The notes: generated by a model from the sequence alone, not told the origin. DNA of 64,000 nt from an uncultured Candidatus Saccharibacteria bacterium (GCA_964577565.1 CAZNZL010000001.1:334566-398565); one strand, 5' to 3'; positions 3,221-56,422 are shown, counted from the first letter of the stretch. Program-made: numbers and translations.

Positions 3221-3386
3221 ATTAATATCTATTTGGTGCCGCCTGTCTGGCATATTTCTAACCGCTACACCTGAGAATGTTGATTTATATAAGCTAAGGG
3301 AGCTTGTGAATCTGTTTAATTTATCTAGTCAGTTAATAGATTAAAGGAGAGGCCCTGTGACCTCTCCCTGCAAAAATTATTAGCTT

Positions 3387-4169
3387 TTAAGCGTCATTGT
3401 TAATCTCCTTCATATCTTTAGCATATTTAGCTTTAATCCATAGTGATGTCATTTCATAGAGGTTGTCCATGGCACCTTCTTCCGTAAACGGATGAGATAC
3501 ACCTGGAATAACCACATGCTTTGTGGCTGCTTTAATATTTTCGGCGTAGTATTTGCCGTATGTCGACATAGCCTTACCACTATCGGCGGCATTAACTACT
3601 AGCGTATCAACAAAAAAAGCATTAGCCATTGTCGTACTGCCCGGTGCGTAATCATTGAAAACTTTACCTGATAATACATATCCAGGTCCCTTTGCAGATA
3701 CATATGAATCAAGCTCATCAATGTACAGGAAGTCTTGTTCAAGACTCTCCTTAGCTTGCCGCTCATCATAGCCATCTGTATGACTGGCGTCCCATAAAAC
3801 AGCTGCATTAAAAGCTTGTTTTTGTGAGTAAACTATCGCCATGCCACTATAGCTATGGCCAATTACGCAAATCCAATCGGCACCACGCTCACGGACATAA
3901 TCAACAATAGTGTCAATATCTTTGGCACAGGTTTTCACGCCGAACTCTCCAATATCTCTCTGCTTTTTGCTATCTCCGTAAAAACTGACCCGCAATGTTG
4001 ATATGCCCTGCTGCTCAAAGTAGCGTGAAGCGTTGAACAACAGCAAGTCGTGTTGCCAACCACCTAATCCTGGTGCAAGCACAACTAACGGCGATATATA
4101 TTTGCCCCTTAATGTTCCCTCAATTTCTATATGACTATCAGGAATAGGGATACTAACGCTCTTTTCCAT
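3387..4169 (-). CDS. alpha/beta hydrolase
   Basis: GHSYSGM nucleophile elbow (GxSxG). GGAG lies 6 nt before the ATG at 4169 (MEKSVSIPIP...). Confidence 0.7.
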   Translation of the reverse strand: MEKSVSIPIPDSHIEIEGTLRGKYISPLVVLAPGLGGWQHDLLLFNASRYFEQQGISTLRVSFYGDSKKQRDIGEFGVKTCAKDIDTIVDYVRERGADWICVIGHSYSGMAIVYSQKQAFNAAVLWDASHTDGYDERQAKESLEQDFLYIDELDSYVSAKGPGYVLSGKVFNDYAPGSTTMANAFFVDTLVVNAADSGKAMSTYGKYYAENIKAATKHVVIPGVSHPFTEEGAMDNLYEMTSLWIKAKYAKDMKEINNDA

Positions 4170-4536
4170 AGTAAACTCCAATTTAAAACCGAGCGTATGT
4201 TTTAGTTGTCATACATTGCTCGGTTTCTTGAAAGATTATTAGTTACAAAAACACTAAATAGTCGCGGAGGATGTATGACTGTTCAGTGGTTTTCGTAGAC
4301 TAACATATTAAATATATCGTAACATTAAGTACTGTTTGTGTCAATTCAGTTAGAGTCCTGTTTGTATGAAGGTCAAAAACAAGCAAAAAACGCCGATTTA
4401 CTCGACGTTTTCTAGGGGTCATTTTCTAAAATATGTTTGGTGCAAGATAGTTGACGCATTTCAAACATCGGCAATTGAGCGTGCAAATGATACGAAACTT
4501 CAACACTTAGTTAAAATCTTTGGTTTGTCGAGTGAC

Positions 4537-5181
4537 CTAATCTAGTTTTTTACGCAATTGTTCTAGTAAATAGCTATGAAATTCTGTCATAAAGTTATTC
4601 CACAGCATATACGGTCGTTTATGTTCAACTATCAAATCAATAATCTTATCTGACTCACTTATGCCAGTGTAGTGTTTATACCTCCAAATTGTAATTTCTT
4701 TTGGTGTTAGGTAGTCCATTATGTCAGGTGTTATTTTATCAATTGCTTTAGCAAACTTTGCGGACTTACTTTTCTTCTTCTCGGCATCGTCATAAATATC
4801 GTGATAAATAGGATTTAGTAATTTTAGTGCGGCATTGTATTCAGCTTTGGCTCCATCCTTATTCTTAGTAAATGTCATCTCATCGCCTGTAATCAACTCG
4901 CCTATATCGTGTATCGCTAGCATAGTTAGTGCATCTCCAAGGTTAACCTCATCGTCACTTATATGTGGGAAAAACGCAGTCGCCATCACAGGAAGTGAAC
5001 CAACGTGTTCCATAAGTGTTTCACGAACTAAATTGTCGTCAGGATGATATTTAAAATTCGGAAAATGTTTGTGTGCAGTCTGCCAAAGATACGGCTGAGT
5101 TGTTGCTCTTAGTGTTTTAGAATATCTTTCAAATAAATACTCTAGTTCGTCTAAAAACTTATGCATATCTTTTTTCGACAT
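4537..5181 (-). CDS. HD-domain phosphohydrolase (YfbR-like 5'-nucleotidase family)
   Basis: LMEHVGSLPV...LAIHDIGELITGD gives the H..HD..D metal-binding pattern. ATG at 5181 (MSKKDMHKF) is preceded by GAGAG. Confidence 0.7.
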   Translation of the reverse strand: MSKKDMHKFLDELEYLFERYSKTLRATTQPYLWQTAHKHFPNFKYHPDDNLVRETLMEHVGSLPVMATAFFPHISDDEVNLGDALTMLAIHDIGELITGDEMTFTKNKDGAKAEYNAALKLLNPIYHDIYDDAEKKKSKSAKFAKAIDKITPDIMDYLTPKEITIWRYKHYTGISESDKIIDLIVEHKRPYMLWNNFMTEFHSYLLEQLRKKLD

Positions 5182-5318
5182 ATTACTCTCAGAATAACAA
5201 AAAATGAGCCAAAAGTGGCTCAAATGTTTGAAAGTATACTGTTTGAAAAACGTTTGGGTTGTATTGGTGCACCTGACCGCGCAGCTCTTGAACTCGGTAC
5301 CTCAGGTGGATCGAGTGT

Positions 5319-5987
5319 TTACAGCTCTGGCCCGGCCGGTCCCGAAGCGTGGTCGGAGGCCGTCGGAGTTCCTCTACCGGTTGGATCCGTAGCGAGCCCG
5401 ACGTGCCAGCGGCCGTCTTCGTCCTGTGATACGTCCAGTTCAGAGAGATCGAGACCACCATCTAGAAGACCCCGGAGCATCTCTCGACCGAGTCCGCGTT
5501 CTGCGGCCGACATGCCTATGTCGTGGGTATAGGACGCCTCGAAGCTGAGTACATCGCTCTGGTGTTGGGCTGGACGCGGTGCTGGTGTCCGACGCGCAGC
5601 GTGGCGCCTGCGAAGTGCTGCCGCTTGTGCTCGGTCGAAAGATTGCTGCCATTCGTCTGCGAACTGACGTACTTCATCACCGTCAAGCATGTCCACGAGA
5701 CGTTGGCCATGTCTCCAGTCGGGTGGTTCCTGTTCTGCCCGACGCTGAGCGCGAGCAGCCTGTCGTTCAGCAGCTACCTCGGCGACGTGTTCTGCGCCCA
5801 GAACCTGATCGACTCGTTTGCCAACAGGAACGATCGCCTGCTCCGCTTGGAGCGCAACTTCTCGTTCTCGCCTTCGTCGTAGGACCCGTTCAGGTTCATA
5901 GGAAGGACCCACACTCGGCAGATCTGACGAAGGTGCTCCCGGTTCACGTTCTCCTGTCATGGGCCACATTATGAGACTCGTTCTCAA
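5319..5987 (-). CDS. hypothetical protein (Arg/Ala/Glu-rich), third gene of the island operon
   Basis: 222-aa ORF co-directional with the two upstream genes, with a 26-nt gap. No motif recognised. The start is uncertain (MTGEREP is an alternative). Confidence 0.45.
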   Translation of the reverse strand: MRTSLIMWPMTGEREPGAPSSDLPSVGPSYEPERVLRRRREREVALQAEQAIVPVGKRVDQVLGAEHVAEVAAERQAARAQRRAEQEPPDWRHGQRLVDMLDGDEVRQFADEWQQSFDRAQAAALRRRHAARRTPAPRPAQHQSDVLSFEASYTHDIGMSAAERGLGREMLRGLLDGGLDLSELDVSQDEDGRWHVGLATDPTGRGTPTASDHASGPAGPEL

Positions 5988-6013
5988 TTCCCTCTAGTGT
6001 GGAATCGACAACG

Positions 6014-6376
6014 TCAGGCAGCTCGTTCGTCCCTGAGCTGCTCTCTGGCGAGGTCGACGAGGGCTCGAGCCAGAGTGGTGAGATCGGGTTCGTCGCGCTG
6101 GTAGGCGGTGACCTTGATGGTGGTCAGCTTCTTGGGGGAGCGAGAGTCTGGGATGGTCATCCGAACCCGGCTGCCACGAGCAACCCGTGGAGGATCTGCT
6201 CCGGGTGGTGGGCTTGGGTTGGTCAGCTCTTCGATGACCGTGAAGCGAAAGCTGGAGGGATCGACAGGGACGTAGGTTAGCTCTGCCGAGACGACAGTTG
6301 CTTCCTCAGTCCCGCGATCTTGCGGGGGGGGGGCGAGGTCATCGCCTGGGTTGGCGAAGAGGGAGAGCTGGGTCAC
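6014..6376 (-). CDS. hypothetical protein, second gene of the island operon; contains a C10 tract
   Basis: GTG start lies 15 nt after the stop of the 911-aa gene (MTQLSLFANPGDDLAPPPQ...). Third-position G/C bias supports the minus strand over the antisense ORF 5999..6280. Confidence 0.5.
   Translation of the reverse strand: MTQLSLFANPGDDLAPPPQDRGTEEATVVSAELTYVPVDPSSFRFTVIEELTNPSPPPGADPPRVARGSRVRMTIPDSRSPKKLTTIKVTAYQRDEPDLTTLARALVDLAREQLRDERAA
6324..6333 (-). repeat. homopolymer G10 (C10 in the coding sense)
   Basis: Counted directly as tgc+ggggggg+ggg. It encodes APPPQ inside CDS 6014..6376. Confidence 0.95.
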
Positions 6377-6391
6377 GGGAGCACCATGCGC

Positions 6392-9127
6392 CTACTTCTT
6401 GAACGAGGACTTAAGCTTCATAGTCCTTCGACTGAATGGAATCGGCCCACCTTCTAGGTGGTCGAGGGCCAACCGGTTGAGCTCGTGGCGTTCGAGCGAA
6501 CCTGATGCCTCGACCTCTCCATGACCAGCAGTCGCTTTCATTGTGACGATCTGCTCGGCATCTCCACTCACCACAATCCCAGGGCTTCGTGTTGCGAACA
6601 GATATTGCCGACTTCCCCGGAGGTCACGCAGACGGTCAACGAGGTACTCCTCAATCCAAGGGGCATGCAAGGCGTCTTCGGGTTGGTCGACTAGTACAGG
6701 CGTGTCCCCGTCAGCGAGCAGGATTACCAGGATGGCTGTGCAGCGTTGGCCATGAGCCAGCTCCTCTATCGCCGTGTACTGGTGATCGTCGGGCTTCTTG
6801 AACTTTATGGTGAGTACATCGGGGCGTTCGATAGTCTGCATCTCCAGGAGCTGCTCCCACATGTTCCGGTCGTCAATGTTGGCGAGAAGCTTCGCGACGC
6901 TGGTTGAGTCGATGCCGTGGGCTGTGTTAACGACTTCGTTGGGCGTCCCGAGCCAGAGGCTGCGTGAGAACTTGAGCGGACTAGTACGCAGCGCAAGTTG
7001 GTGAAGGAAGTCGTCCTTAACGCGTGATCCGACCTTGATCTCATCGAGTGCGTCACGGAAAGCCTTCGCGTCACCCTCATTGGGCACGTCCAGTTTGACA
7101 AACCCCGCAGCCTTTTCATTCAGCTGAAGCACGCGAGCCCGCCTCAGCTCCCGGCGCTCCTTGCGCGCTTCGTGGAGCACATCAATCATCTGTTCGCGTT
7201 GCTGTTCGAGTGTAGCTAGCGCAGGCTTAGCTTGCTCATCCAGCTCTTCCTTTGCGGCTTCGGCGTGGGTCAACTTCCCCTGGAGCTGTTCCAAACTGGC
7301 GCGTAAGGCGGTAAGCGAGGTTCCGTCGGGATCGACCTTCTCTAGCTCTTCGTCGAGCTTCGCCTTGAACTCAATGAACTTGGTAGACCATTGCTTCTCA
7401 ACCAGGCCGAGCTCGTCTGCCGCCTCGGTTAGACCCTTCTCGATAATCTCTAAGCCTTTGGCAACTTGCTCATCGAGCTTCGCAATGGCCTTGGAGGTTT
7501 GCCCAAACAGCTCCTTGTTCGACTCAACCTTGTGAGCGATCTCCGCGTTGGGCACCGCTAGCGTCGGAACTTCAAGTTGTTCGACACGTACTTTGACCTG
7601 CTGCAACGCCGTCTTCTCAGCTGCCCAGCTCGCCTGCTCTTTCACCGCGTCGGTCTTGAACACGTCACTAAGCTTCCGAACCTGCTCCTTAAGATCTGTC
7701 ACCCGTCCAGCATCGTCGGTCAGGCGAGAAACCCGATTACGAGCCGCAATCAACTTGGTGGCATTGGTTCGGAGCCCAGTTGTCGCTGCTGCGATTCGCT
7801 CGTTGATCTCGTCCAAGTCGAGCGCAGAATCGACCAGAGTCATACGGCCGACTGGCTCCCGCGAGTACTCGAGGATCTCGCCTTGCGAGAACGCTGCTAG
7901 AGGACACAGCACTGCCGGATCTACGTCTACGTCAGCCCAGTCTCCACTGGTCTGTTGAGAGACCTGTGCATTTGGGGATCCCGTGGGATCGAAAGTGCGC
8001 TCGATCTTGTAACGCTTGCCTTCGGCAACCAGAACAAGGCGAACAACACTCCCATTCATCAGTGCCTTTTCCATTCGCGAGTCAATCTCGTCACGTATGG
8101 CTGGGAATGAGTCGTGATCTACTTGCTGCTCAAGAGCGAACCGCACTGCCTCAAGGATCAACGACTTTCCCGTACCCGTGCCACCGAGAAGGCAGTTCAG
8201 GTCCGGCGAAAGGTCGATCTTTCCCCCGCCAAGGAACCCACCGATCAGCTCGACAGATTCGATCCGCGCATATGGCGGTGACAATGCTGGTTCTTCTAGA
8301 GTGATTCGCAAGGGAGGATCAGCCAGCGCATGGCGAACGCCTATCAGATCCGGCCGACTGGCCTTGATCCATGTCCGCCTCGCGCCGATGCCGGCAAGCG
8401 AGTGACAGCTGAGCGTTTCGTCCCATGTGTCGGATCCGCGCACGAAAGCCATCGTTCGCTCGTCAGCAATCTTGTTGTTGACATTGTCGATGGTGTCCAT
8501 GTGGACGACCTCGACCGCCGAAATCTGATCGCAAAGCAGAATCTTCTTTTGATGCGCCTTCACGCCAAGCTTTAAGAGACCCTTGGGCTTCTCGATATGG
8601 GCAGCAATAGCGATCCCACCTGCCTTGTCAACTTCAACGGCGGCTTGGGTGAACCCAACATCAGCCGCGATATCGAGCTTGCCTCGGTCCGCTTGTCCGA
8701 TGCCAAGGCGCACAAGCAACTCCTGGATCACCACTGGATCGACACCCTCTTCCCATATGGCGAGGAGGTGTCCTTCCGTAGTGCTGATCTCCACGCCTGG
8801 TAGGACAACTAGCGGACTTTCGGCAGCCGCATCGGCAATCCGCTTGCACCACGTTGCGGTGTTGTGGTCGGTGATCGCGATTGCATCTAGACCAGCGTCG
8901 ATCGCCGCCTGGACGATCTCCGCAGGAGTGCCATAGTGCTCCGGCTTGGCATCTTGCGATCCTGGGGTGTGCACATGGAAATCGACGGCCCAAAACCTTG
9001 CCCAGTCAGCTTTCACGATGCGCACCTTACATACTTCATCACACCCAATTATCACACTCTGCAGGCCCTCAGTCCGTTGCAGAATTCGCAACGCCGTCCG
9101 TCCGCAGCCACTTAGGCCAGCAGGCAA
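6392..9127 (-). CDS. PHP phosphoesterase domain fused to an SMC/Rad50/RecN-like coiled-coil ATPase (Ppl-like architecture)
   Basis: PHP motifs are WAVDFHVHTPGS, AIAITDHNT, GVEISTTEGH and AAHIEKP. Walker A LLGGTGTGKS lies at nt 8162-8185, followed by a long coiled-coil of about 270 aa. The C-terminus carries signature-like HGQR plus Walker B/D-loop VLVDQPEDALH. An alternative GTG start lies at 9025. Confidence 0.8.
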   Translation of the reverse strand: MPAGLSGCGRTALRILQRTEGLQSVIIGCDEVCKVRIVKADWARFWAVDFHVHTPGSQDAKPEHYGTPAEIVQAAIDAGLDAIAITDHNTATWCKRIADAAAESPLVVLPGVEISTTEGHLLAIWEEGVDPVVIQELLVRLGIGQADRGKLDIAADVGFTQAAVEVDKAGGIAIAAHIEKPKGLLKLGVKAHQKKILLCDQISAVEVVHMDTIDNVNNKIADERTMAFVRGSDTWDETLSCHSLAGIGARRTWIKASRPDLIGVRHALADPPLRITLEEPALSPPYARIESVELIGGFLGGGKIDLSPDLNCLLGGTGTGKSLILEAVRFALEQQVDHDSFPAIRDEIDSRMEKALMNGSVVRLVLVAEGKRYKIERTFDPTGSPNAQVSQQTSGDWADVDVDPAVLCPLAAFSQGEILEYSREPVGRMTLVDSALDLDEINERIAAATTGLRTNATKLIAARNRVSRLTDDAGRVTDLKEQVRKLSDVFKTDAVKEQASWAAEKTALQQVKVRVEQLEVPTLAVPNAEIAHKVESNKELFGQTSKAIAKLDEQVAKGLEIIEKGLTEAADELGLVEKQWSTKFIEFKAKLDEELEKVDPDGTSLTALRASLEQLQGKLTHAEAAKEELDEQAKPALATLEQQREQMIDVLHEARKERRELRRARVLQLNEKAAGFVKLDVPNEGDAKAFRDALDEIKVGSRVKDDFLHQLALRTSPLKFSRSLWLGTPNEVVNTAHGIDSTSVAKLLANIDDRNMWEQLLEMQTIERPDVLTIKFKKPDDHQYTAIEELAHGQRCTAILVILLADGDTPVLVDQPEDALHAPWIEEYLVDRLRDLRGSRQYLFATRSPGIVVSGDAEQIVTMKATAGHGEVEASGSLERHELNRLALDHLEGGPIPFSRRTMKLKSSFKK

Positions 9128-9200
9128 AGGGGACTTGAACTCAAACGACCCCTGTAATCAGGGGCCGCAGAGTTCTAGTAATAAGAGTCATTCTCGAAGT

Positions 9201-9276
9201 TGGTGCGGGTGACGAGACTCAAACTCGTGGCCTCTTCCTTGGCAAGGAAGCGCTCTATCAACTGAGCTACACCCGC
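9201..9276 (-). tRNA. tRNA-Gly (GCC)
   Basis: RC is gcgggtgtagctcagttgatagagcgcttccttGCCaaggaagaggccacgagtttgagtctcgtcacccgcacca. The cloverleaf folds by hand and CCA is encoded. Confidence 0.95.
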
Positions 9277-9460
9277 TCGTCAGAATCGACGGTCGCCTTT
9301 CACGAAAGTTTTTAAACTAACTTTCGTTTCACGCTCTAGTCGCTTCTTCCTCTCAGTTTTTTATCCAGTCGAGTCGGCAAAGCCGCTCCTTGGGATAAAA
9401 AACTGGTATTTGAGAAATATCCCAACTACAGGGGTGAATTATATGGTATATGGAGGCTTT

Positions 9461-9751
9461 TTACAAGTCTTCAGATCCTTGAGGGGCATCATCCGACCTC
9501 TCTTTAATCCATTCTTGAAATTCTTTATCTGACATTTCCAGGGTGCGTAAAATGGTCTCTATCATCTCTGGCGCACCCTCAAACGTAACGGGGCTATCAC
9601 CTAAAGGTTCGAAGACGCTTGAAGGAATATAACCTTGACACCCAATTTGAACAGCCAGTCCTTCTCCACGCTCGAATCTATCGCTACACATCACGTTTAT
9701 CTTACCACAAATGAATTGGCTGATCAGGCCTCCCAGGGCTTCCTTCGGCAC
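9461..9751 (-). CDS. hypothetical protein
   Basis: 96-aa ORF between two tRNA genes. No motif recognised. Confidence 0.4.
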   Translation of the reverse strand: MPKEALGGLISQFICGKINVMCSDRFERGEGLAVQIGCQGYIPSSVFEPLGDSPVTFEGAPEMIETILRTLEMSDKEFQEWIKERSDDAPQGSEDL

Positions 9752-9819
9752 ATTTCAAAACTTTCTCGAAGCAAGCTGCTGCGCGTGCTCATCATGAACG
9801 AACTGCCCACTTCGTGGCA

Positions 9820-9832
9820 CCCAGTTCGAGTC
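9820..9832 (+). repeat. inverted 13-nt copy of the tRNA-Phe T-arm
   Basis: cccagttcgagtc on the plus strand equals the sense T-stem/loop of the minus-strand tRNA-Phe (complement at 9907-9919). Confidence 0.85.
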
Positions 9833-9860
9833 GTTAAGCAAAGACTAAACCCTAAGTAAA

Positions 9861-9890
9861 AGCCCCATCCATTAGGATGAGACTTTTACT
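9861..9890 (-). terminator. hairpin plus T-run after tRNA-Phe
   Basis: Minus sense reads aaaagtctcatcctaatggatggggcttttac, with stem catcc/ggatg followed by TTTT. Confidence 0.55.
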
Positions 9891-9891
9891 T

Positions 9892-11287: not shown

Positions 11288-11488
11288 ACCTGCTCCTTGT
11301 TTATAGTTAAAGTATAAATGAGATATTTGATTTTATGAATTTTTATTCTATCGGGATCTTGTAGGGGGTCCCCACAAAAACGCTAGGTTTAGTGGGGTAA
11401 AGGAGCGTCAACGAAGGCCTTGCCAAAAATATAACAACCTTGTTTTAGGGAAGTTATATTTCCAGCAAGGTAGTAGTTTGGTGCGACG

Positions 11489-11510
11489 TGGTGGGCGCTG
11501 AGGGACTCGA
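11489..11510 (-). repeat. orphan copy of the last 22 nt of tRNA-Val (T-loop to CCA)
   Basis: tggtgggcgctgagggactcga is identical to 11829-11850. No upstream cloverleaf is present. Confidence 0.9.
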
Positions 11511-11673
11511 CCTACCTTCGGCAGGCCCGGAGGTTCACGATTGGCAAGCCAGTTGCCATCGGAACATTCCCTTGCGGAATGCCACTGGCATTCCTCACCC
11601 CTCCCCTTGGAGTCGGGTGTTCGAGGCCACAATCGACAAACAAAAAGCCCATCCCGAGGATGGACTATTTGTT

Positions 11674-11689
11674 TGGTGGGCGCTGAGGG
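11674..11689 (-). repeat. orphan copy of the last 16 nt of tRNA-Val
   Basis: tggtgggcgctgaggg is identical to 11829-11844 and is followed on the minus strand by its own hairpin plus T-run (11642-11668). Confidence 0.9.
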
Positions 11690-11798
11690 GGCGGTTTCGC
11701 CTCTGCTCAACCCGCTGCGTCGCTTACTCTCCGCCAGCTGGCGAATGTGTGAGCTCCTTGCGAACGAACCCCAGGGTTCTCGTCCCTCAAAACCATAT

Positions 11799-11822
11799 AA
11801 AAAGCCCGTCATTGACGGACTC
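11799..11822 (-). terminator. hairpin plus T-run after tRNA-Val
   Basis: Minus sense reads agtccgtcaatgacgggcttttt. Confidence 0.6.
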
Positions 11823-11828
11823 TTTATA

Positions 11829-11905
11829 TGGTGGGCGCTGAGGGACTCGAACCCCCGACCCCTTCGGTGTAAACGAAGTGCTCTAGCCAGCTGAGCTAAG
11901 CGCCC
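11829..11905 (-). tRNA. tRNA-Val (TAC)
   Basis: RC is gggcgcttagctcagctggctagagcacttcgttTACaccgaaggggtcgggggttcgagtccctcagcgcccacca. Confidence 0.95.
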
Positions 11906-12676: not shown

Positions 12677-12886
12677 CCTTTAATATTTAACTTTAACTAT
12701 TTTGTTGTGGTGCACCTGATGACAGGTGTCTTGAACCTTTAGAGAGTATATCTGACTGGCTATTAAGTAGTCCAGATATAGACTGGGTTTTACAGCTTAG
12801 AAATGCTTCATTATCTGGATTTGTACCACAGTACCAACTCTGATAAGGGCGTGTTATTACTCTCGCTAGAAGTCGTTTGAACCAAA

Positions 12887-13531
12887 TTACTCAGAGACGT
12901 AAAAGGTGTTCTGTGCTTCTTCTAGTAATTGAGGACGACCGAACTCGTCGGAGACCACCTCAACACCACGCTGCTCACAGTATTCAGCAATTTCATTTAC
13001 TCCACCCAGAACCGTTCTAACGGCGGTCTCAAGAGCGACAGCCTCGTCTTGAGTGGGTTTTTCTATGCTCACATCTCTACCAAGAGCTAACTCTACAAAT
13101 GGCTGATCAACTACAATGCCTTTCTTCCCGCTATCATTGGTTTCAATCGCACATATAGGTACATATTTCATAGTTGCAAACTTGAAGAACATATCTCCAA
13201 TCGCACCACTATCTGCTTCAACCTCACCAGCGTAACCCTTTGCAGACTCTTCGAGACACAGACTGTATTTACCGTCTTTCATATTAGGCGTCACACTAAA
13301 ATCGGTACGTAAGTCAGGCTCAGTTTCGGTTGCTGGCTCACCATTTCGCAAAGTAGTGCTTATTGCTCGGAAAAGCATGTCATCACCGAGTATTTTTGTG
13401 CTAAATGCACCCAATGCTTCTGCTAGTACTGCCTTTTTCAGGTCAATATCAAAGTCACCATTATCTTGTGGGATTGGTTCACGTGGTTCTGTCATGGGGT
13501 ACATATTAGCATAATTACTTTGTATTGTCAA
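12887..13531 (-). CDS. hypothetical protein (acidic)
   Basis: 214-aa ORF. No motif recognised. Confidence 0.55.
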   Translation of the reverse strand: MTIQSNYANMYPMTEPREPIPQDNGDFDIDLKKAVLAEALGAFSTKILGDDMLFRAISTTLRNGEPATETEPDLRTDFSVTPNMKDGKYSLCLEESAKGYAGEVEADSGAIGDMFFKFATMKYVPICAIETNDSGKKGIVVDQPFVELALGRDVSIEKPTQDEAVALETAVRTVLGGVNEIAEYCEQRGVEVVSDEFGRPQLLEEAQNTFYVSE

Positions 13532-13693
13532 TAGTTCTTATGCTGTTACTGTGTCGCACAATAAGTATTGTGAGTCAGTACCTAACAGGGGTAGAGCCCG
13601 TTTTTTAGCGACATAGGTGCTTGTCAAGTGCTAGTGTTATTTTCGCCCACCCCTGTTAAATAACATATTATACAATAATGCGATTTGCAGATT

Positions 13694-14788
13694 CTAAATG
13701 TCGTTGCACGAAGGAATGACACCCTTATATGCTTGCTCAAATTGAACGGTTTCTGCTGAACGGCAAGCGTCATAAATACTCTCCTGCACAGCCCTAGCAG
13801 CAGCATGACCAATAATATCTACTTGCGTATATAAGCTGTCCTCTACCTCCTGGAAGTATTGCAGCATACTATTAAATGGATTCTTTAGTTCGCCTGTACT
13901 AAATACAAAAACAGTATCACCGTCAGACGAAGTATGTACAGGATTTATCGCACGTACTTGTCCATGTGAAGCAAGGTGGGCCACTTTCTCTAGATGCAGC
14001 TTCGCCCCTAAGTCTACGTTGATACCTACAACCGAGATAGTTGTATTAGCCCTATCTTGGGTTACGAATTCAATAAGATTTTCGTACGGCTTAAACTTCG
14101 TTTCTTCATCTCTATTTCCCGCAAGCACTTCTCCATTAGGCAAGATGATGTTGCCCAATGAGTTAACCACCGACAATGCACAAACAATAATTCCATTGCC
14201 TAGGTCTACACGAGCAGAGCCAACACCAGCCTTCATAGCACTTGTTTTCGTACCACCCTCTACCCAACGGAACTTACCAACCGAAGTACCAGTTCCAGCC
14301 CCAACATTGCCACTAGCTACTGGCTCCGTATTAGCACTTTCGTATGCTTCACGACCATACACAGGATCGTAGGGTGCAACTTGCATTCCTTGGTCGTAAA
14401 CTATTGCTCCCACAACAGACGGATTATAAATATCCTTGTTCTTACCCGAAACAGAGCCAACTTTGTCTCGTCGCATACACCCCATAATCTCAGAAGCCGA
14501 CATTAAGCCCGTATTGCTTCCGCCAGCAATAAATATTCCTCGTTCTCCATAGTTGGTCTTATCTGCTTTATTTGCTTCAGTCCCAAATGCACCCACAGCA
14601 CCACCATAAGCTTTATATGCAACTTGATACGGTTTATCAAAAAGAATTACAGTGCAGCCAGTTAGCTTATCTAAGTGTGTAGAGTGTCCTACTTTTACGC
14701 CATGTAGGGCTGTAAGTGTATTGTTTTGCATAGTCTTATGCATAGCAGGGAAAAACAGGAATAGCACGGATGTAGCAATTAAGCTCAA
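13694..14788 (-). CDS. S58 (DmpA / P1 family) aminopeptidase
   Basis: LHGVKVGHSTHLDKLTGCTVILF...NVGAGTGTSVGKF...INPVHTSSDGDTVF is the typical DmpA-family pattern. The start is uncertain (TTG 14788 or an internal ATG). Confidence 0.75.
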   Translation of the reverse strand: MSLIATSVLFLFFPAMHKTMQNNTLTALHGVKVGHSTHLDKLTGCTVILFDKPYQVAYKAYGGAVGAFGTEANKADKTNYGERGIFIAGGSNTGLMSASEIMGCMRRDKVGSVSGKNKDIYNPSVVGAIVYDQGMQVAPYDPVYGREAYESANTEPVASGNVGAGTGTSVGKFRWVEGGTKTSAMKAGVGSARVDLGNGIIVCALSVVNSLGNIILPNGEVLAGNRDEETKFKPYENLIEFVTQDRANTTISVVGINVDLGAKLHLEKVAHLASHGQVRAINPVHTSSDGDTVFVFSTGELKNPFNSMLQYFQEVEDSLYTQVDIIGHAAARAVQESIYDACRSAETVQFEQAYKGVIPSCNDI

Positions 14789-14977
14789 AACCCCGTCCTA
14801 GACGCTCTCCGTAGGTCCTAGAGGGCATCCAAATCGGTTCACTATTTAGCCTTGAAATTACTCCAGTTGGTGGTTCCAAATCTTTTTCCCATATTTCTGA
14901 CCGTCAACGCCGTTTTTCGCCGTATATTGTTCTTACCATATCTGACAGCAAAACTCTTAAAAACTATGCAAATGCGA

Positions 14978-15217
14978 CTAGTTAATCTGGAATGGTGTCA
15001 GGAAACTAAACACAACCTTATCCTGGTTGCTGTGAGCTTTCTCCATCTTCTCTGCGAACACTTTGTTACTTAAGTGGCGATAGTAAGTATCACGACTTAT
15101 TCCTGCATACCTACACGCCTCCCCAATAGTGCTATTGTGTTGGATCGAGTCAGCCAGCATCATCATAACCGTATAATTAACCTTAGAGGGTCTGCCTTCG
15201 GCTCTTTTGTATACCAT
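14978..15217 (-). CDS. small helix-turn-helix DNA-binding protein
   Basis: AAGGAG RBS. RAEGRPSKVNY...STIGEACRYAGISRDTYYRHL resembles resolvase/terminase-small-type HTH. It is divergent from the recombinase. Confidence 0.6.
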   Translation of the reverse strand: MVYKRAEGRPSKVNYTVMMMLADSIQHNSTIGEACRYAGISRDTYYRHLSNKVFAEKMEKAHSNQDKVVFSFLTPFQIN

Positions 15218-15280
15218 ATTTACTCCTTTTGGTTTTTGCGGATACCTCTATTCTTATTATCTCAAAACAACAATTTTAAC

Positions 15281-15309
15281 TTGACAATTCTTAAGCATAA
15301 GCGTATAAT
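15281..15309 (+). promoter_or_regulatory. consensus sigma70-type promoter
   Basis: TTGACA (15281-86), a 17-nt spacer, then TATAAT (15304-09). It lies 345 nt upstream of the recombinase ATG. Confidence 0.6.
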
Positions 15310-15659
15310 TAGAAGTACGATAGTGAGTGTCTTGGTGTCATAGAACACATACACACTTGCTTTAGGACTTCCCACCCCTTAGTCGATGTTGTCCTCGATA
15401 ACTTGTCGAGACACATTGGGCTAAGAGATTGATGATCCATCGAATATCCAACTAGTATCAGACGAAACAAGCCCACAGCTAGAAGCGGTGGGTGCTTTTG
15501 GTGTCCACAACAAAAAGACACAAGATATAGACGACGGGCTAATAGAATATGCAGATGCCCTTGAAGCTATAGACGAAAATAACCCGTTAGCCGAACTAAA
15601 TGCGGTGTCAATGTCCGACAACAATGGTGGTCGTATCTTCTACTAATACAAGCTAAAAT

Positions 15660-17249
15660 ATGTTCATGGTACTAGACGAAGAAATTGACCGTACTAAGTT
15701 ACGGTATGTGCTTTATGCTCGTAGGTCTACTACTGATGAAGGTAGTCAGGTTCGTTCTGTACCCGACCAAATCAAGTATTGCAAACGTCACGCCGAAATA
15801 GGGGGGCTAAACATAGTAGCTACGGTTAAGGAAAAAGGTTCAGCCAAGAAGCCAAATATAAAAATACGACCTAAATTTTACGAGTTACTTGATGAAATAG
15901 AGCACGGTGGTAAGTACGATGCTATTCTTTCGTATGCACCGGACAGACTCTCACGCAATATGCTGGACGGTGGTCGTATCATCAACCTACTGGATGAAGG
16001 AAAGATAAAAGACCTGCAATTTCCAACACATCACTTTACTAACGATCCATCTGGAAAACTCACGCTAGGTATCATGTTCTCTATATCTAAGCACTTTTCC
16101 GACGACCTATCTCAAAAGGTTCGTAGAGGGGTATCAGGAAACTGGGAAGAGGGTAAATCAGGGGGCCAACCTAAATGGGGCTATGACCGTGAACCAGATG
16201 GACGTTATCGTCCTAATGAGTGGTTTGATACTGTACAAGAAGCATGGTACATGAGAGCAAGAGGTGCAACAAACAAGATGGTGCTCGATTACTTGCTTGA
16301 GAAGGGCTACCACCGAATGACGAAAATCACGAGAAAGAATAAGAAAACAAAGAAGATACTGCCGACCGAAAAGAGTGTAGGAAATTTGTTCCGTGACCCA
16401 TTCTATTTCGGTATGCTTGAACAAACTCAACAAAATATAGACCTACGCACCGTACAATTAGACTTTGAGCCGATGATAGACGAGGAAATATATAACCAAG
16501 TCCAAGCTCTAGCTTATACTAGAAAGCGAGATATTGACCCCAAGAAAAGGACTGAATTCAAGCCCCTTAGACACTTAGTCTATTGTGGTGTTTGCAAGAG
16601 TGAAAAGTGTATGTCTGTAGGTAAGAATAAGCCAGGGGGTAGCAAACATCTTGTACTGTCATACGAGTGCAAAAACCCTGATTGTACTCGAAAACCTAAA
16701 TCCGTTAGAGCCAAGTTCATCTTTGACGGTATTTACGAGCTACTAGAGAAATTAGAGCTGTCAGACGAAGCGTACGAACGCTACAGCAAACGTATTGACA
16801 GCTTCACTGACGATAAGATTATCAAGATTAAACAAGAAATCTCTAGTAAGAGGGGTGCTTACGCACACAAGAAGAAAGAGCTTGATGAATTGTCGCTCGG
16901 ACTAGGCAAAATTAGCCGTAATTCGCCAGCTTATGTAATAAACGAGAGCAGGATTAACGAGCTGGCAATTGAAACTCAAGATTTAGAAGATGAGATAGAA
17001 AAGCGTAAAGCAAAAATTGCTAATCCGAGCAAAATAAAGCTGACCAAAGAGCAGTTCTTGAACCTCGTAAAATTAGCTCCTGACAAGATGAGAGCGGGTT
17101 CAGCAGTCGAAAAAGACCGTGTCGCACGGATATTATTCTTGAACCTAACCGTAGACAATGAAAAAAGGGTCTATCCTATCTGGAAAGAACCCTTTGCAAG
17201 CCTGGTAAAGGCCATTGAAATGTCGTCTGGTGCGGACGAAAGGACTTGA
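15660..17249 (+). CDS. large serine recombinase (integrase type)
   Basis: The N-terminal resolvase catalytic domain reads YVLYARRSTTDEGSQVRSVPDQ. A recombinase domain follows. Zinc ribbon CGVCKSEKC...YECKNPDC is followed by a C-terminal coiled-coil. Confidence 0.85.
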   Translation: MFMVLDEEIDRTKLRYVLYARRSTTDEGSQVRSVPDQIKYCKRHAEIGGLNIVATVKEKGSAKKPNIKIRPKFYELLDEIEHGGKYDAILSYAPDRLSRNMLDGGRIINLLDEGKIKDLQFPTHHFTNDPSGKLTLGIMFSISKHFSDDLSQKVRRGVSGNWEEGKSGGQPKWGYDREPDGRYRPNEWFDTVQEAWYMRARGATNKMVLDYLLEKGYHRMTKITRKNKKTKKILPTEKSVGNLFRDPFYFGMLEQTQQNIDLRTVQLDFEPMIDEEIYNQVQALAYTRKRDIDPKKRTEFKPLRHLVYCGVCKSEKCMSVGKNKPGGSKHLVLSYECKNPDCTRKPKSVRAKFIFDGIYELLEKLELSDEAYERYSKRIDSFTDDKIIKIKQEISSKRGAYAHKKKELDELSLGLGKISRNSPAYVINESRINELAIETQDLEDEIEKRKAKIANPSKIKLTKEQFLNLVKLAPDKMRAGSAVEKDRVARILFLNLTVDNEKRVYPIWKEPFASLVKAIEMSSGADERT

Positions 17250-17314
17250 ACCTTCACAGGATTGCTCCCACTGGCCCCTCAAGCCAGCGCGTCTACCAAT
17301 TCCGCCACGTCCGC
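17228..17314 (-). tRNA. tRNA-Leu (GAG)
   Basis: RC is gcggacgtggcggaattggtagacgcgctggcttGAGgggccagtgggagcaatcctgtgaaggttcaagtcctttcgtccgcacca. It has a long variable arm. Confidence 0.95.
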
Positions 17315-54991: not shown

Positions 54992-55738
54992 ATGACCACT
55001 ATGACTCGAGAGCAAGCTCTCGAAGCCATCATCTGGAGCGCGGATGGCCTAACGCCGTCCGAGCTCTATGCAGTGCTGGACTTGATGCCAGACCTTCGGC
55101 GCGTCAAGCTCGATCGGCTGTTCGTGCGGAAGTACGGTGATGAGCCCATCGTGCACCTCACCGAGCGTGGCTACGACGTCTTCAACGACGCCAAGCTCAC
55201 CGAGGTGACCAGCAAGCTCATCGAGCTGGCAGAAGTCGAACTCGCAACCGATCCCTGGATGCTCAACTGCATGGCCGGTTCAACATCGACCGGCAAGCTG
55301 GAGCATCCCACTCCGCAGAAGGTCGACGCTCTCAAGCAGTTCGCCGATCTGTGCCACGAGACGGGAACGCTGCCGTGTGGCGTGACCGTCCTCACCACCA
55401 AGGAAGACGAGCACGTCGAAGGCGAGTTCAACGGACGACCGCCCATCGACCAGGTGCTGTGGTACGCCGATCTGATGATCAAGTGCGGCTTCACCGACAT
55501 GGTGTGTTCGCCCCAAGAAGCGCAGGCCATCGTCGACGAGTTCGGCTCCGCCATCAGCACCAACACTCCGGGCATCCGCCTGCCGGATTCACCGCCTGAC
55601 GACCAGGCGCGAACCAAGACGCCCGGCGAGGCGATCAAAGCCGGAGCAACCCGGCTCGTCATCGGTCGCCCCATCAGCAAGGGCAACCCAGCCGAGAACA
55701 TCGAGAAAATCGTCGCCGACATCCTGTCTGCGGCCTGA
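54992..55738 (+). CDS. orotidine-5'-phosphate decarboxylase-like protein
   Basis: GGAGG lies 4 nt before the ATG. IIWSAD, RVKLD, FNDAKLTEV (DxK), VTVLTT, MVCSPQEA, TPGIR, DQARTKTP and VIGRPI align to the PyrF landmarks. Confidence 0.75.
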   Translation: MTTMTREQALEAIIWSADGLTPSELYAVLDLMPDLRRVKLDRLFVRKYGDEPIVHLTERGYDVFNDAKLTEVTSKLIELAEVELATDPWMLNCMAGSTSTGKLEHPTPQKVDALKQFADLCHETGTLPCGVTVLTTKEDEHVEGEFNGRPPIDQVLWYADLMIKCGFTDMVCSPQEAQAIVDEFGSAISTNTPGIRLPDSPPDDQARTKTPGEAIKAGATRLVIGRPISKGNPAENIEKIVADILSAA

Positions 55739-55753
55739 CAACAAGGAGACCAA

Positions 55754-56422
55754 TTGTCACTCGACATTGCAAGTAGGCTCGAGGAGGCGGGTGCCGTCTA
55801 CACAGACAAGCACTTTGTCTACAAGAGCAAGAAGCACGGCAACGGCTACATCAACCCGGACCCGCTGTTCCCTGACATCGAGCTACTGTGGCAGCTCGGC
55901 GTGGAACTGTGGGGACCGTTCGCTGGCCGCTTCGACACGGTGGCTACCCCGGCAACGGGCGGCATCGCTTTGGCGTACGCCACGGCCTACACCCTCCGCT
56001 ACGAAGTGGATGTCGGCTCTGGCGGTCCCGCCACGGCGGTCGTCTGGGCTGACAAGGACGGAGACGACTTCGTCTTCGAGCGTGCCGGCTTCCTCGACCA
56101 GATCCGCGGCAAGCAGGTACTCGTCGTCGAGGATCTGCTCACAACCGGAGGTTCCGTCGCCAAGGTGGTCCACGAAGTGGAACGCAACGGCGGTGAGGTC
56201 ATCGGCGTCAGTGCGGTCTGCAACCGGGGCGGTGTCACAGCTGATGATCTCGGCGTCCACCAACTCGAGAGCCTCATGGCCGTCAGCTTCGAAGCGATAC
56301 CGCGTGAAGACTGTCCGCTGTGTGCCGACCAGGTCCCCATCGTCGAGGACATCGGACACGGCAGCGACTTCAAGTCCGAGAACCCCAACTACGAAGGAGG
56401 TTACATCAAGCTGCTGTCCTGA
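55754..56422 (+). CDS. orotate phosphoribosyltransferase-like type I PRTase
   Basis: AAGGAG precedes the TTG start. PRPP loop VLVVEDLLTTGGSV. The gene is adjacent to the pyrF-like gene. Confidence 0.7.
   Translation: MSLDIASRLEEAGAVYTDKHFVYKSKKHGNGYINPDPLFPDIELLWQLGVELWGPFAGRFDTVATPATGGIALAYATAYTLRYEVDVGSGGPATAVVWADKDGDDFVFERAGFLDQIRGKQVLVVEDLLTTGGSVAKVVHEVERNGGEVIGVSAVCNRGGVTADDLGVHQLESLMAVSFEAIPREDCPLCADQVPIVEDIGHGSDFKSENPNYEGGYIKLLS

What the first reader, a model, noticed from the sequence alone, without database searches (positions are those of the whole stretch)
5265..9200. Compositional mosaic: high-GC inserts in a lower-GC genome, possibly acquired from a high-GC (actinobacterial host-like) donor
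Hand counts give 62%, 55% and 57% GC for lines 5461, 7201 and 8701. Flanking lines 4561 and 10561 give 32% and 40%. The same jump occurs at 11489-11828 and 54985-56430 (60% in line 55081). Codons in these ORFs are G/C-ending. If the organism is a Saccharibacteria-type episymbiont, its known hosts are high-GC Actinomycetota. Host-to-symbiont transfer would explain the composition, the WhiB-like genes and the trehalase.
Basis: partly seen in the sequence, partly recalled or inferred. Interest (0 to 1): 0.6.

Follow-up and report, generated by a model that had tools for sequence, protein, structure and literature searches.

The report
Foreign defence-gene cassette at tRNA-Gly
A 3.9-kb high-GC stretch in this Saccharibacteria (TM7) genome is a horizontally acquired cassette, inserted exactly at the end of a tRNA-Gly gene, that carries an intact anti-phage nuclease-ATPase whose closest named relatives are in Actinomycetota (Nocardioides); it is a clean example of a known kind of event, not a new kind of system.

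Summary
The GC mosaic is real. Window mean GC is 46.8%; 5271-9199 is 58% and 54992-56422 is 62% (gene GC/GC3 z = +4 to +7).

- **Host:** the core-gene relatives are Saccharibacteria.
- **Block 1 (5271-9199):** this is an insertion. The closest relative (L009) has an identical tRNA-Gly joined directly to the sequence found at window 4381-4443. The insert (4444-9199) has two parts: high-GC cassette A and an 820-bp, 35%-GC HD-domain cassette B. Each is bounded by GCACCAA, a copy of the tRNA 3' end.
- **Cassette A cargo:** an intact PHP + SMC-like ATPase (TrlF/Ppl anti-phage type). All named relatives at 60% identity or more are Actinomycetota. Its tetranucleotide signature matches Nocardioides-type DNA (r = 0.87), not Saccharibacteria (0.00-0.16).
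- **Second carrier:** another contig (L097) holds the cassette at the same tRNA-Gly site.
- **Block 2 (11478-11828):** not foreign. It is a conserved structured RNA region next to tRNA-Val.
- **Block 3 (pyrF + pyrE-like):** an insertion with foreign composition, but it has no actinobacterial homologues.
- **Side claims:** the trehalase is syntenic across Saccharibacteria, and the WhiB-like gene has native composition.

Transfer from the organism's own host is not shown.

The parts
9201..9276 (-). tRNA-Gly(GCC), the integration target; its 3' end ...CCCGCACCA abuts the island
   Evidence: ARAGORN and Rfam. It is 100% identical to the tRNA-Gly of relative L009.
5271..9199 (-). Cassette A: 3929-bp high-GC (58%) insert carrying three co-oriented ORFs
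   Evidence: GC profile; absent from L009; tetranucleotide r = 0.87 to Nocardioides-type loci and 0.00 to the window core; independent assembly L001 covers 4382-9229 at 100% identity.
6392..9055 (-). TrlF/Ppl-type anti-phage gene (887 aa as called): N-terminal PHP phosphoesterase plus SMC/ABC-like ATPase. The true start is probably GTG 9016-9025.
   Evidence: Pfam PHP, AAA_23 and AAA_21; NCBIfam TrlF_fam_ATP 343.8 bits against a cut-off of 350, and Ppl 245 bits; PADLOC Ppl 171 bits; all invariant family motifs retained.
6014..6376 (-). orf120, unknown function. Its C-terminus matches the 135-aa ORF that follows the ATPase in L097.
   Evidence: No Pfam, NCBIfam or PADLOC hit; BLASTP E = 1e-4 against L097:2966-3373.
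5319..5969 (-). orf216, a near-orphan protein of unknown function
   Evidence: No family hits; only two partial homologues among 1.84 billion representatives.
9200..9206 (-). Core copy 1 (GCACCAA in tRNA sense): the tRNA-Gly 3' end plus one base
5264..5270 (-). Core copy 2, exactly at the 35% to 60% GC step. It is preceded in cassette A by the arm GTTCAAGA-N9-TCAGGTGCACCA.
4444..5263 (-). Cassette B: 820-bp low-GC (35%) insert with an HD-domain (HD_3) gene at 4537-5181 and a leading terminator hairpin at 5205-5222
   Evidence: Pfam HD_3; GC z -4.3; absent from L009; terminator.
4437..4443 (-). Core copy 3, followed by the displaced native tRNA-Gly downstream flank and terminator (4384-4414)
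   Evidence: 92% identity of 4381-4443 to the sequence directly after tRNA-Gly in L009; terminator.
3240..4436 (-). Cassette C: older variable segment (alpha/beta-hydrolase-like ORF 3387-4181). Its ends are conserved in L009 but its cargo differs.
3233..3239 (-). Core copy 4, followed by a terminator hairpin; conserved as GCACCA in L009
11478..11828 (-). Block 2: non-coding, structured region 3' of tRNA-Val (11829-11905). Contains two tRNA-Val 3'-end copies, two terminators, a conserved cloverleaf-like RNA (about 11487-11608) and a window-only unit (about 11675-11792).
54992..55738 (+). Block 3 gene 1: divergent OMP decarboxylase (PyrF), 62% GC, GC3 0.80
   Evidence: Pfam PF00215; NCBIfam 104.8 bits, below the cut-off; composition.
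55754..56422 (+). Block 3 gene 2: divergent orotate phosphoribosyltransferase-like protein (PyrE, Thermus type), 62% GC
   Evidence: Pfam PF00156; NCBIfam pyrE_Therm 98.8 bits, below the cut-off.

Best explanation
Window 5271-9199 is a horizontally acquired gene cassette, inserted immediately after the 3' CCA end of tRNA-Gly(GCC) in a Saccharibacteria chromosome. It is the newest, tRNA-proximal member of a small stack of inserts at that tRNA: A (high GC), B (low GC, HD-domain gene) and C (older, shared site). Each insert is delimited by a copy of the tRNA terminus, GCACCAA. The cargo of A is an intact single-gene defence protein of the TrlF/Ppl type: a PHP phosphoesterase/exonuclease fused to an SMC/ABC-like NTPase. 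By homology with E. coli Ppl it should degrade phage DNA from 3' ends. Two small ORFs of unknown role follow it. The gene belongs to a clade that circulates on mobile elements of Actinomycetota (a Nocardioides conjugative-type element, Rhodococcus and Gordonia plasmids), so that gene pool is the most likely source. Shown: the compositional anomaly, the insertion, the junction repeats, gene integrity and family, the actinobacterial affinity, and a second carrier at the same site. Inferred: defence activity, direction of transfer, site-specific recombination by a recombinase acting in trans, and any link to the organism's own host.
For: Composition.

Host lineage.

Empty site: L009 has an identical tRNA-Gly followed directly by the homologue of window 4381-4443.

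Independent assembly across all three junctions: L001 = window 4382-9229 at 100% identity.

Junction repeat: TTGGTGC lies at 9200, 5264, 4437 and 3233 on one strand, where about 0.66 are expected. Each non-tRNA copy is followed by a terminator hairpin.

Related att-like arms:
- A-distal against the far end of the tRNA-Leu/serine-recombinase island, p = 8e-5.
- The 12-mer TCAGGTGCACCA occurs only at those two places in the window and in none of 102 other loci.
- B-distal against C-distal, 21/40 identities, p = 1e-4.

Gene family and integrity.

Ppl mechanism: PMC12904381.

Relatives:
- Named hits at 60% identity or more are all Actinomycetota.
- Among 185,579 species genomes only two, both Nocardioides, hold a close relative.
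- The only close plasmid hit is Gordonia, at 66%.
- The tree places the window copy inside the Nocardioides group.
- Actinobacterial copies lie in mobile or defence contexts.

Signature: r = 0.87 to Nocardioides-type flanks, equal to genuine actinobacterial pieces (0.86 +/- 0.05), against 0.16 to high-GC Saccharibacteria.

Second carrier: L097 has a Saccharibacteria-type tRNA-Gly 3' half, a homologous element end, and an ATPase 80% identical.
Against: - No integrase or other mobility gene lies inside cassettes A, B or C.
- Beyond the 7-bp core, the arms do not significantly resemble the tRNA.
- The nearest named actinobacterial protein is only 74-75% identical, and nucleotide homology (71-77%) is confined to the ATPase ORF, so the actual donor is unsampled.
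- The tetranucleotide signature is not unique to Actinomycetota (Halapricum plasmid 0.71, Xanthomonas plasmid 0.56).
- L097's copy groups with a Nocardioides MAG (99% bootstrap, 84.9% identity), not with the window's copy (79.6%). The history therefore involves more than one transfer, and its direction is not fully resolved.
- Most homologues are unnamed metagenomic proteins.
- The trees are neighbour-joining only.
Confidence: 0.75

Rival explanations
1. Assembly or binning chimera: an actinobacterial fragment was wrongly joined to a Saccharibacteria contig at a conserved tRNA.
For: The window comes from a metagenome-assembled contig. The join is at a tRNA, a classic place for mis-joins. The independent contig L001 ends inside the tRNA.
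Against: A chimera would need two mis-joins, and the second (5264-5270) shares only 7 bp. L001, a separate single-run assembly, reproduces the tRNA/A, A/B and B/native junctions at 100% identity. L097 shows the same arrangement in another sample with a different tRNA-Gly variant. The 29 tRNA bases in L001 carry the Saccharibacteria-specific T-loop.
Confidence: 0.03
2. Native, vertically inherited genes whose high GC reflects amino-acid content or selection, with the segment lost in relatives.
For: orf216 has ordinary GC3 (0.50). A second Saccharibacteria-type contig carries the cassette at the same site.
Against: GC3 and the tetranucleotide signature are foreign. Saccharibacteria keep their signature even at 56-58% GC (core against high-GC Saccharibacteria r = 0.75) and the island does not share it (0.16). 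The empty site in L009 is scar-free. No homologue was found in about 100 Saccharibacteria loci. The tree nests the gene among Actinomycetota.
Confidence: 0.05
3. Acquired, but not from Actinomycetota, or in the opposite direction: the source is another high-GC lineage or a mobile-element pool shared by several phyla, and Nocardioides may itself be a recipient.
For: In actinobacterial genomes the homologues are themselves GC-poor for their hosts (GC3 0.62-0.72) and sit on plasmids, conjugative-type elements and defence islands. The signature also matches a haloarchaeal plasmid at 0.71. L097 groups with the Nocardioides MAG at 99%. Most of the 496 homologues are unnamed.
Against: Every named relative at 54% identity or more is actinobacterial, across at least seven genera. 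Other phyla's TrlF genes are below 30% identical. The non-ATPase part of the island also has the Nocardioides-type signature (0.72). Nocardioides-type DNA is the best match among the references tested.
Confidence: 0.15
4. A rival at the level of mechanism: host DNA was taken up by natural competence and inserted by microhomology-mediated illegitimate recombination (or spread between Saccharibacteria by homologous recombination of the flanks), rather than by a site-specific recombinase.
For: Saccharibacteria are naturally transformable through the com system (PMC10633639). No integrase lies in the cassettes. Junction identity is only 7 bp. Cassette C has conserved ends but different cargo in L009, which flank-mediated exchange would produce.
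Against: The same 7-mer is used four times on one strand. L097 shows the same insertion point and a homologous element terminus. The distal arms are shared between cassette A and an island that does encode a large serine recombinase.
Confidence: 0.3

Closest known systems
Ppl, the single-gene PHP + ATPase anti-phage system of E. coli (PADLOC 'Ppl'; NCBIfam NF042955)
   Same: Same two-module architecture: an N-terminal PHP phosphoesterase and an SMC/ABC-like NTPase with a long coiled-coil insert. It is a single large gene located in mobile or defence contexts. PADLOC Ppl scores 171 bits and NCBIfam Ppl 245 bits over residues 44-666. Ppl is described as an ssDNA 3'-5' exonuclease activated by nucleotide depletion and free 3'-OH ends (PMC12904381).
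   Different: It scores far below the Ppl equivalog cut-off (245 against 1000 bits), so it is not an orthologue. It is followed by two small co-oriented ORFs. No activity data exist.
TrlF family AAA-like ATPase (NCBIfam NF045780)
   Same: Full-length match (residues 43-905 against model positions 3-943 of 944, E = 3e-102). Homologues annotated 'TrlF family' occur on many conjugative plasmids.
   Different: The score of 343.8 bits is just under the curated cut-off of 350. It belongs to a distinct subclade at 60% identity or more that is known only from Actinomycetota and unnamed metagenomic contigs. Plasmid TrlF genes of Listeria, Enterobacteria and Xanthomonas are below 30% identical.
tRNA-linked genomic islands / integrative elements with serial accretion (from general knowledge: actinomycete integrative elements such as pSAM2 and SLP1, and pathogenicity islands at tRNA genes)
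   Same: Insertion at the 3' end of a tRNA gene, repeats of the tRNA terminus at each junction, atypical composition, absence from close relatives, and several inserts stacked with the newest next to the tRNA.
   Different: There is no integrase, excisionase or transfer gene in the cassettes. The repeats are only 7 bp. The cassettes are very small (0.8-3.9 kb, 1-3 genes).
Reported gene transfers into CPR/Saccharibacteria
   Same: Short transferred fragments (518-5730 bp) between CPR bacteria and other prokaryotes were reported in activated sludge (PMC10031880). The arginine deiminase system was acquired by mammalian Saccharibacteria (PMC8764695). Cultured Saccharibacteria grow on Actinobacteria (PMC10633639, PMC11659515, PMC11880426).
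   Different: Here the insertion site, junctions, empty allele, a second carrier and the donor-clade context are resolved base by base, and the cargo is a defence gene.

Membership tests
TrlF/Ppl-type PHP-ATPase defence proteins | N-terminal PHP domain with metal-binding His/Asp motifs | tested here: met
   Pfam PHP. DFHVHTPGS, TDHNT, GVEISTTEGH and AAHxEK are invariant in the alignment with 9 homologues.
TrlF/Ppl-type PHP-ATPase defence proteins | SMC/ABC-like ATPase with Walker A, Q-loop and Walker B split by a coiled-coil region | tested here: met
   AAA_23 and AAA_21. GGTGTGKS, AFSQGE and VLVDQPEDALH are conserved.
TrlF/Ppl-type PHP-ATPase defence proteins | Score at or above the curated family cut-off | tested here: inconclusive
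   TrlF_fam_ATP 343.8 bits against 350 (just below). The Ppl equivalog scores 245 against 1000, which is not met.
TrlF/Ppl-type PHP-ATPase defence proteins | Protects cells against phage; 3'-5' exonuclease activity | not testable with these tools
   Known only for E. coli Ppl (PMC12904381, PMC11482910).
tRNA-linked integrative genomic island | Insertion at the 3' end of a tRNA gene with the tRNA left intact | tested here: met
   The island starts one base after the CCA of tRNA-Gly, and the tRNA is 100% identical to the empty-site relative.
tRNA-linked integrative genomic island | Direct repeats of the tRNA end at the island boundaries | tested here: met
   GCACCAA at 9206-9200, 5270-5264, 4443-4437 and 3239-3233. 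Only 7 bp; longer similarity to the tRNA is not significant.
tRNA-linked integrative genomic island | Encodes its own integrase/recombinase | tested here: not met
   No recombinase domain in any ORF from 3240 to 9199. The nearest recombinase is the serine recombinase at 15660-17249, in a separate tRNA-Leu island.
tRNA-linked integrative genomic island | Atypical composition and absence from close relatives | tested here: met
Integron-like cassette array | Integrase gene next to a primary attachment site, and cassettes each ending in a structured attC-type site | tested here: not met
   There is no adjacent integrase. Cassette ends share short arms pairwise (A with the Leu island; B with C) but show no common structured site.
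Transfer from Actinomycetota | Closest homologues and tree position lie within Actinomycetota | tested here: met
   Caveats: NJ trees only, and many unnamed sequences.
Transfer from Actinomycetota | Oligonucleotide/codon signature of the donor group and not of the recipient | tested here: met
   r = 0.87 to Nocardioides-type DNA, 0.67 to Gordonia, 0.16 to high-GC Saccharibacteria and 0.00 to the core. Not exclusive: Halapricum 0.71.
Transfer from Actinomycetota | Near-identical donor sequence, or demonstration that the donor is the physical host | tested here: not met
   The best named relative is 74-75% identical at the amino-acid level and 71-74% at the nucleotide level. The host is unknown.

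The most novel reading that the evidence does not exclude
The integrase-less cassettes at tRNA-Gly and the serine-recombinase island at tRNA-Leu(gag) are products of one recombination system. A resident large serine recombinase (15660-17249), acting in trans, would capture small foreign DNA segments carrying a GTTCAAGA-N9-TCAGGTGCACCA-type arm at tRNA genes that end in CCGCACCA. That would give a naturally competent episymbiont a cassette-accretion locus for domesticating DNA of its actinobacterial hosts, such as defence genes and possibly the pyrF-pyrE salvage pair.
Probability: 0.12. Interest if true: 0.7.

Novelty: new member of a known kind. Interest (0 to 1): 0.4.

Why it matters
Saccharibacteria are obligate epibionts with tiny genomes, and for most environmental lineages the host is unknown. 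This locus is a base-resolved case of a foreign defence gene with an empty allele, a second carrier at the same site, and a nearest relative inside a Nocardioides mobile element. It therefore offers a concrete, testable lead for host prediction: Nocardioides-like Actinomycetota.

It also bears on how these reduced genomes arm themselves against phage. The window further shows that composition alone misleads. Of three GC peaks, one is a structured RNA region, and another (pyrF-pyrE, in an organism whose phylum generally lacks de novo nucleotide synthesis) has foreign composition but no identifiable donor.

Tried and rejected
- **Longer att repeats:** local alignments of the junction flanks against the tRNA-Gly 3' half were not significant, so only the 7-bp core is claimed.
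- **Block 2 as a known RNA:** an Rfam search at E <= 1 found nothing. A covariance model built from the four syntenic copies found no further copies in 775 kb and did not detect the window-only unit 2a.
- **Small island ORFs:** Pfam, NCBIfam, PADLOC, tblastn and tblastx against all loci gave nothing, apart from a 26-residue match of orf120 to L097. orf216 has two partial homologues in 1.84 billion representatives.
- **Phage origin:** no relatives of the ATPase or the HD gene in IMG/VR or GenBank phages, and no att-arm match.
- **Amelioration as a clock:** the window's ATPase GC3 (0.64) lies within the range of the actinobacterial copies (0.62-0.72), so it says nothing about age.
- **Tetranucleotide signature as proof of phylum:** rejected after controls. 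The signature excludes Saccharibacteria but also resembles haloarchaeal DNA.
- **Flanking repeats for block 3:** none found.
- **Exact-sequence cluster look-up:** gave no organism names.
- **Window's own genome:** not in the species-representative collection.
- **Literature:** a search for 'TrlF' returned only unrelated uses of the acronym among the papers listed. No paper in the library connects WhiB with Saccharibacteria genes.

Full report
**1. Observation**

The compositional mosaic is real. The window averages 46.8% GC. The segment from about 5270 to 9200 runs at 55-63% in 200-nt windows. Its left edge is very sharp (5101-5300 = 35%, 5301-5500 = 62.5%) and its right edge coincides with a tRNA-Gly gene.

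Two further peaks exist, at 11.5-11.8 kb (54-59%) and at 55.0-56.4 kb (60-67.5%). Nothing else in the window exceeds 52% in 1-kb windows.

Thirty-six core genes give GC 0.463 +/- 0.026 and GC3 0.444 +/- 0.048. Against that background:

| Gene | GC z-score | GC3 z-score |
|---|---|---|
| Large island gene | +4.1 | +4.0 |
| orf120 | +6.8 | +5.0 |
| PyrF | +6.0 | +7.3 |
| PyrE-like | +6.2 | +7.0 |
| HD-domain gene (left of the island) | -4.3 | -2.5 |

**2. Whose genome**

The SPFH/slipin gene lies between blocks 1 and 2. Its named relatives are all 'Candidatus Saccharibacteria bacterium', at 85-90% identity.

The window comes from a 482,922-bp NCBI contig. Its tetranucleotide signature correlates 0.92 with mid-GC and 0.75 with high-GC Saccharibacteria-type contigs.

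**3. Block 1 is an insertion at tRNA-Gly**

In the closest relative I could fetch (L009, GCA_964426755.1; SPFH 98% identical), the tRNA-Gly is 100% identical to the window's. It is followed directly by the homologue (92%) of window 4381-4443. The window therefore carries 4756 extra bases (4444-9199).

The 7-mer TTGGTGC is the reverse complement of GC-A-CCA-A, the tRNA's 3' terminus. It occurs in three places:
- at the tRNA itself (9200-9206);
- exactly at the GC step (5264-5270);
- at the displaced native flank (4437-4443).

The insert is thus two cassettes: A (5271-9199, 58% GC) and B (4444-5263, 35% GC, HD_3 gene).

A fourth copy lies at 3233-3239. Like the others it is followed by a terminator hairpin. 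Its surroundings are conserved in L009, while the cargo between cores 3 and 4 differs. That makes four cores on one strand in 6 kb, where about 0.66 are expected.

All cassette genes run in the direction of the tRNA. The newest insert should be the one next to the tRNA, which is cassette A.

**4. Not an artefact**

L001 is a separate single-run Logan assembly (SRR7082966). It equals window 4382-9229 at 100% identity and so spans the native/B, B/A and A/tRNA junctions. The internal junction shares only 7 bp, which cannot cause a k-mer mis-join.

**5. What cassette A encodes**

The 887-aa protein has an N-terminal PHP domain and an SMC/ABC-like ATPase. Its family matches are:
- NCBIfam 'TrlF family AAA-like ATPase', end to end (343.8 bits; cut-off 350);
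- 'anti-phage protein Ppl' (245 bits);
- PADLOC Ppl.

All motifs that are invariant in ten family members are intact, so the gene is not decaying. [quoted passage not shown]

Two small ORFs follow. orf120 shares a C-terminal motif with the ORF that follows the ATPase in L097. orf216 has only two partial homologues among 1.84 billion representative proteins. Their roles are unknown.

**6. Where it came from**

Of 496 homologues, every named one at 54% identity or more is actinobacterial: Nocardioides, Mycobacteroides, Rhodococcus plasmid, Mycolicibacterium, Ornithinimicrobium, Blastococcus and Acidimicrobiia.

- Among 185,579 species-representative genomes, only two hold a close relative, and both are Nocardioides, at 74% identity.
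- Among 72,556 plasmids, the only close hit is a Gordonia plasmid (66%). TrlF genes of other phyla are below 30% identical.
- The actinobacterial copies sit in mobile or defence settings. One is in an element with a serine recombinase, Replic_Relax and an FtsK/TraB-like protein in a Nocardioides MAG. Another is next to a type III restriction-modification system. Another is among Abi and toxin-antitoxin genes on the Gordonia plasmid.

A neighbour-joining tree places the window's copy inside the Nocardioides group, though its exact position is unresolved.

Tetranucleotide usage of cassette A, by reference set:

| Reference | r |
|---|---|
| Window core | 0.00 |
| High-GC (55-58%) Saccharibacteria contigs | 0.16 |
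| Flanks of the Nocardioides-type loci (ATPase genes removed) | 0.87 |
| Gordonia plasmid | 0.67 |
| Halapricum plasmid | 0.71 |
| Xanthomonas plasmid | 0.56 |

Genuine actinobacterial 3.9-kb pieces score 0.86 +/- 0.05 against the Nocardioides-type flanks, so cassette A is indistinguishable from them. The non-ATPase part of the island gives 0.72 against the same reference.

The signature therefore excludes a Saccharibacteria origin. It fits Nocardioides-type DNA best among the references tested, but it is not exclusive to that phylum.

The ATPase genes are GC-poor for Actinomycetota (GC3 0.62-0.72) and the window's copy (0.64) falls in that range. Amelioration therefore gives no clock.

**7. 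A second carrier, and more than one transfer**

L097 (Logan SRR13766249) encodes the closest relative, at 80% identity. The contig opens with the 3' 41 nt of a tRNA-Gly(GCC), 37 of which match the window's. It shares the unusual TTTGAGT T-loop and the A73 discriminator, and shows a compensatory T-stem change.

After that comes an element terminus homologous to the window's (GCACCA-N7/8-AATGACTCT[T/C]ATT), then the ATPase and a small ORF. The cassette thus occupies the same site in another, presumably Saccharibacterial, genome.

Yet L097's protein is 84.9% identical to the Nocardioides MAG copy and groups with it at 99% bootstrap. It is only 79.6% identical to the window's copy. Nucleotide homology with actinobacterial loci is limited to the ORF plus about 40 nt.

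The simplest reading is repeated exchange between the two phyla within this gene clade. The direction of each step is not fully resolved.

**8. How it was inserted (inferred)**

No recombinase is encoded in cassettes A-C. However, 6.4 kb away a 4.5-kb island of native GC follows tRNA-Leu(gag), which also ends in CCGCACCA. That island is absent from L009 and encodes a large serine recombinase.

Its far end reads AAGGTTCAAGACACCTGTCATCAGGTGCACCA. Cassette A's far end reads GAGTTCAAGAGCTGCGCGGTCAGGTGCACCA. Both share GTTCAAGA-N9-TCAGGTGCACCA (run-based p = 8e-5).

The 12-mer TCAGGTGCACCA occurs only at these two places in the window and in none of 102 other loci. The far ends of B and C are also related to each other (21/40 identities, p = 1e-4).

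This favours site-specific recombination with related att arms, possibly by a recombinase acting in trans. The alternative is natural transformation, which Saccharibacteria perform (PMC10633639), followed by microhomology-mediated insertion. I give that about 0.3.

**9. Block 2 is not an import**

Positions 11478-11828 lie directly 3' of tRNA-Val and are non-coding. In RNA sense the region holds, in order:
- the tRNA terminator;
- a window-only ~120-nt unit ending in a copy of the tRNA-Val 3' end;
- a second terminator;
- a ~120-nt unit, also ending in a tRNA-Val 3'-end copy.

The last unit is conserved at the same position in L009, L011 and L015, whose loci are 38-43% GC. RNAalifold gives it a cloverleaf-like four-way junction of 38 pairs, 11 of them with compensatory double changes in only four sequences. 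The 351-nt block folds with z = -6.7.

Rfam has no match. A covariance model finds only the four syntenic copies. The high GC here reflects RNA structure.

**10. Block 3 is an insertion of unclear origin**

PyrF (54992-55738) and a PyrE-like phosphoribosyltransferase (55754-56422) are divergent: both score below the NCBIfam cut-offs.

In 80 related MetRS neighbourhoods the order trehalase-(NUDIX)-MetRS is conserved and often contiguous. None of the 80 carries this pyrF/pyrE pair there; the only trace is a 29%-identical PyrF-like match in one locus, L031. The window thus has about 3.2 kb extra (54821-58005).

Only the two pyr genes have foreign composition. Their signature is 0.86 to Nocardioides-type DNA and 0.19 to high-GC Saccharibacteria.

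But homologues are few (76) and reach at most 53-59% identity. The named ones are Parcubacteria, Bacilli and Terracidiphilus. The two closest contexts I could read (L016, L103) are CPR/Saccharibacteria-like contigs carrying pyrD-pyrF-pyrE clusters. No flanking repeats were found.

An actinobacterial donor is compatible with the composition but unsupported by homology. Saccharibacteria generally lack de novo nucleotide synthesis (PMC10633639). An orotate-to-UMP pair is therefore functionally plausible cargo.

**11.

The trehalase (58006-59274, PF01204) is syntenic across Saccharibacteria at 53-86% identity and is compositionally near-native. The WhiB-like ORF (57662-57982) has native composition (z +0.2/-0.7). 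Neither is explained by the recent high-GC imports.

**12. Verdict**

Block 1 is a genuine, Actinomycetota-affiliated acquisition in a Saccharibacterium. Block 2 is not an import. Block 3's donor is unknown. Host-to-symbiont transfer remains an attractive inference rather than a result.
- In kind, this is a tRNA-linked genomic islet carrying a known type of defence gene, that is, a new member of a known kind.
- Its value lies in the resolved junctions, the empty allele, the second carrier, and the lead it gives for host prediction.

Noticed in passing
window 11478-11828 (minus strand); L009:9786-9906, L015:9774-9885, L011:9782-9902: A conserved ~120-nt cloverleaf-like structured RNA lies downstream of tRNA-Val. 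Its 3' end copies the tRNA-Val T-loop-to-CCA segment. It has 38 predicted pairs, 11 of them compensatory in four sequences, and no Rfam family. The window also has a second, non-conserved unit of similar layout that shares a CGCAAGG motif.
   Followed up: partly
window 12708-17314: A 4.5-kb island of native GC (42%) sits directly 3' of tRNA-Leu(gag) and is absent from relative L009. It encodes a large serine recombinase (15660-17249, XisF/Ccr-like, overlapping the tRNA end) and a Peptidase_S58 protein. It is bounded distally by a degenerate tRNA-Leu 3' copy ending in TCAGGTGCACCA. The recombinase has relatives at 90% identity or more in several other assemblies.
   Followed up: partly
window 9277-9891 compared with L009:11399-13036 and L013:11245-12894: Relatives carry a Pup-ligase-family gene (PF03136, an Actinomycetota-typical system) between tRNA-Phe and tRNA-Gly. 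The window instead has about 450 nt with no similarity to it (9277-9727), holding a 96-aa ORF.
   Followed up: no
window 57662-57982: A WhiB-like ORF (PF02467, 26.8 bits) of native composition lies inside the 3.2-kb segment that is absent from 80 related MetRS neighbourhoods. No homologue was found in any fetched Saccharibacteria locus, and no paper in the library links WhiB with Saccharibacteria genes.
   Followed up: partly
window 4537-5181: An HD_3-domain gene with unusually low GC (35%, z = -4.3) forms its own 820-bp cassette between two GCACCAA cores. It has no homologue in phage collections or in about 100 fetched loci, and its donor is unknown.
   Followed up: partly
L016:8001-9561 and L103:1518-4198: pyrF-pyrE(-pyrD) clusters occur sporadically in CPR/Saccharibacteria-like contigs. 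In L016 they are GC-elevated (54% and 49%, against 40% in the flanks), which hints at repeated acquisition of this salvage module in the group.
   Followed up: partly
window 9127-9150: Inside cassette A, about 55-90 nt from the tRNA-Gly end, the sequence GAGTTCAAGTCCCCTTTGCC resembles the T-loop/3' half of tRNA-Leu(gag) (GGTTCAAGTCCTTTCGTCC). It may be a relic of an earlier attachment site.
   Followed up: no
loci L017-L096 compared with the window: Saccharibacteria-type contigs spanning 35-58% GC keep a common zero-order-normalised tetranucleotide signature (core against high-GC set r = 0.75). That signature is clearly distinct from actinobacterial DNA (0.02-0.22), which makes it a useful control for spotting imports in this phylum.
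   Followed up: yes
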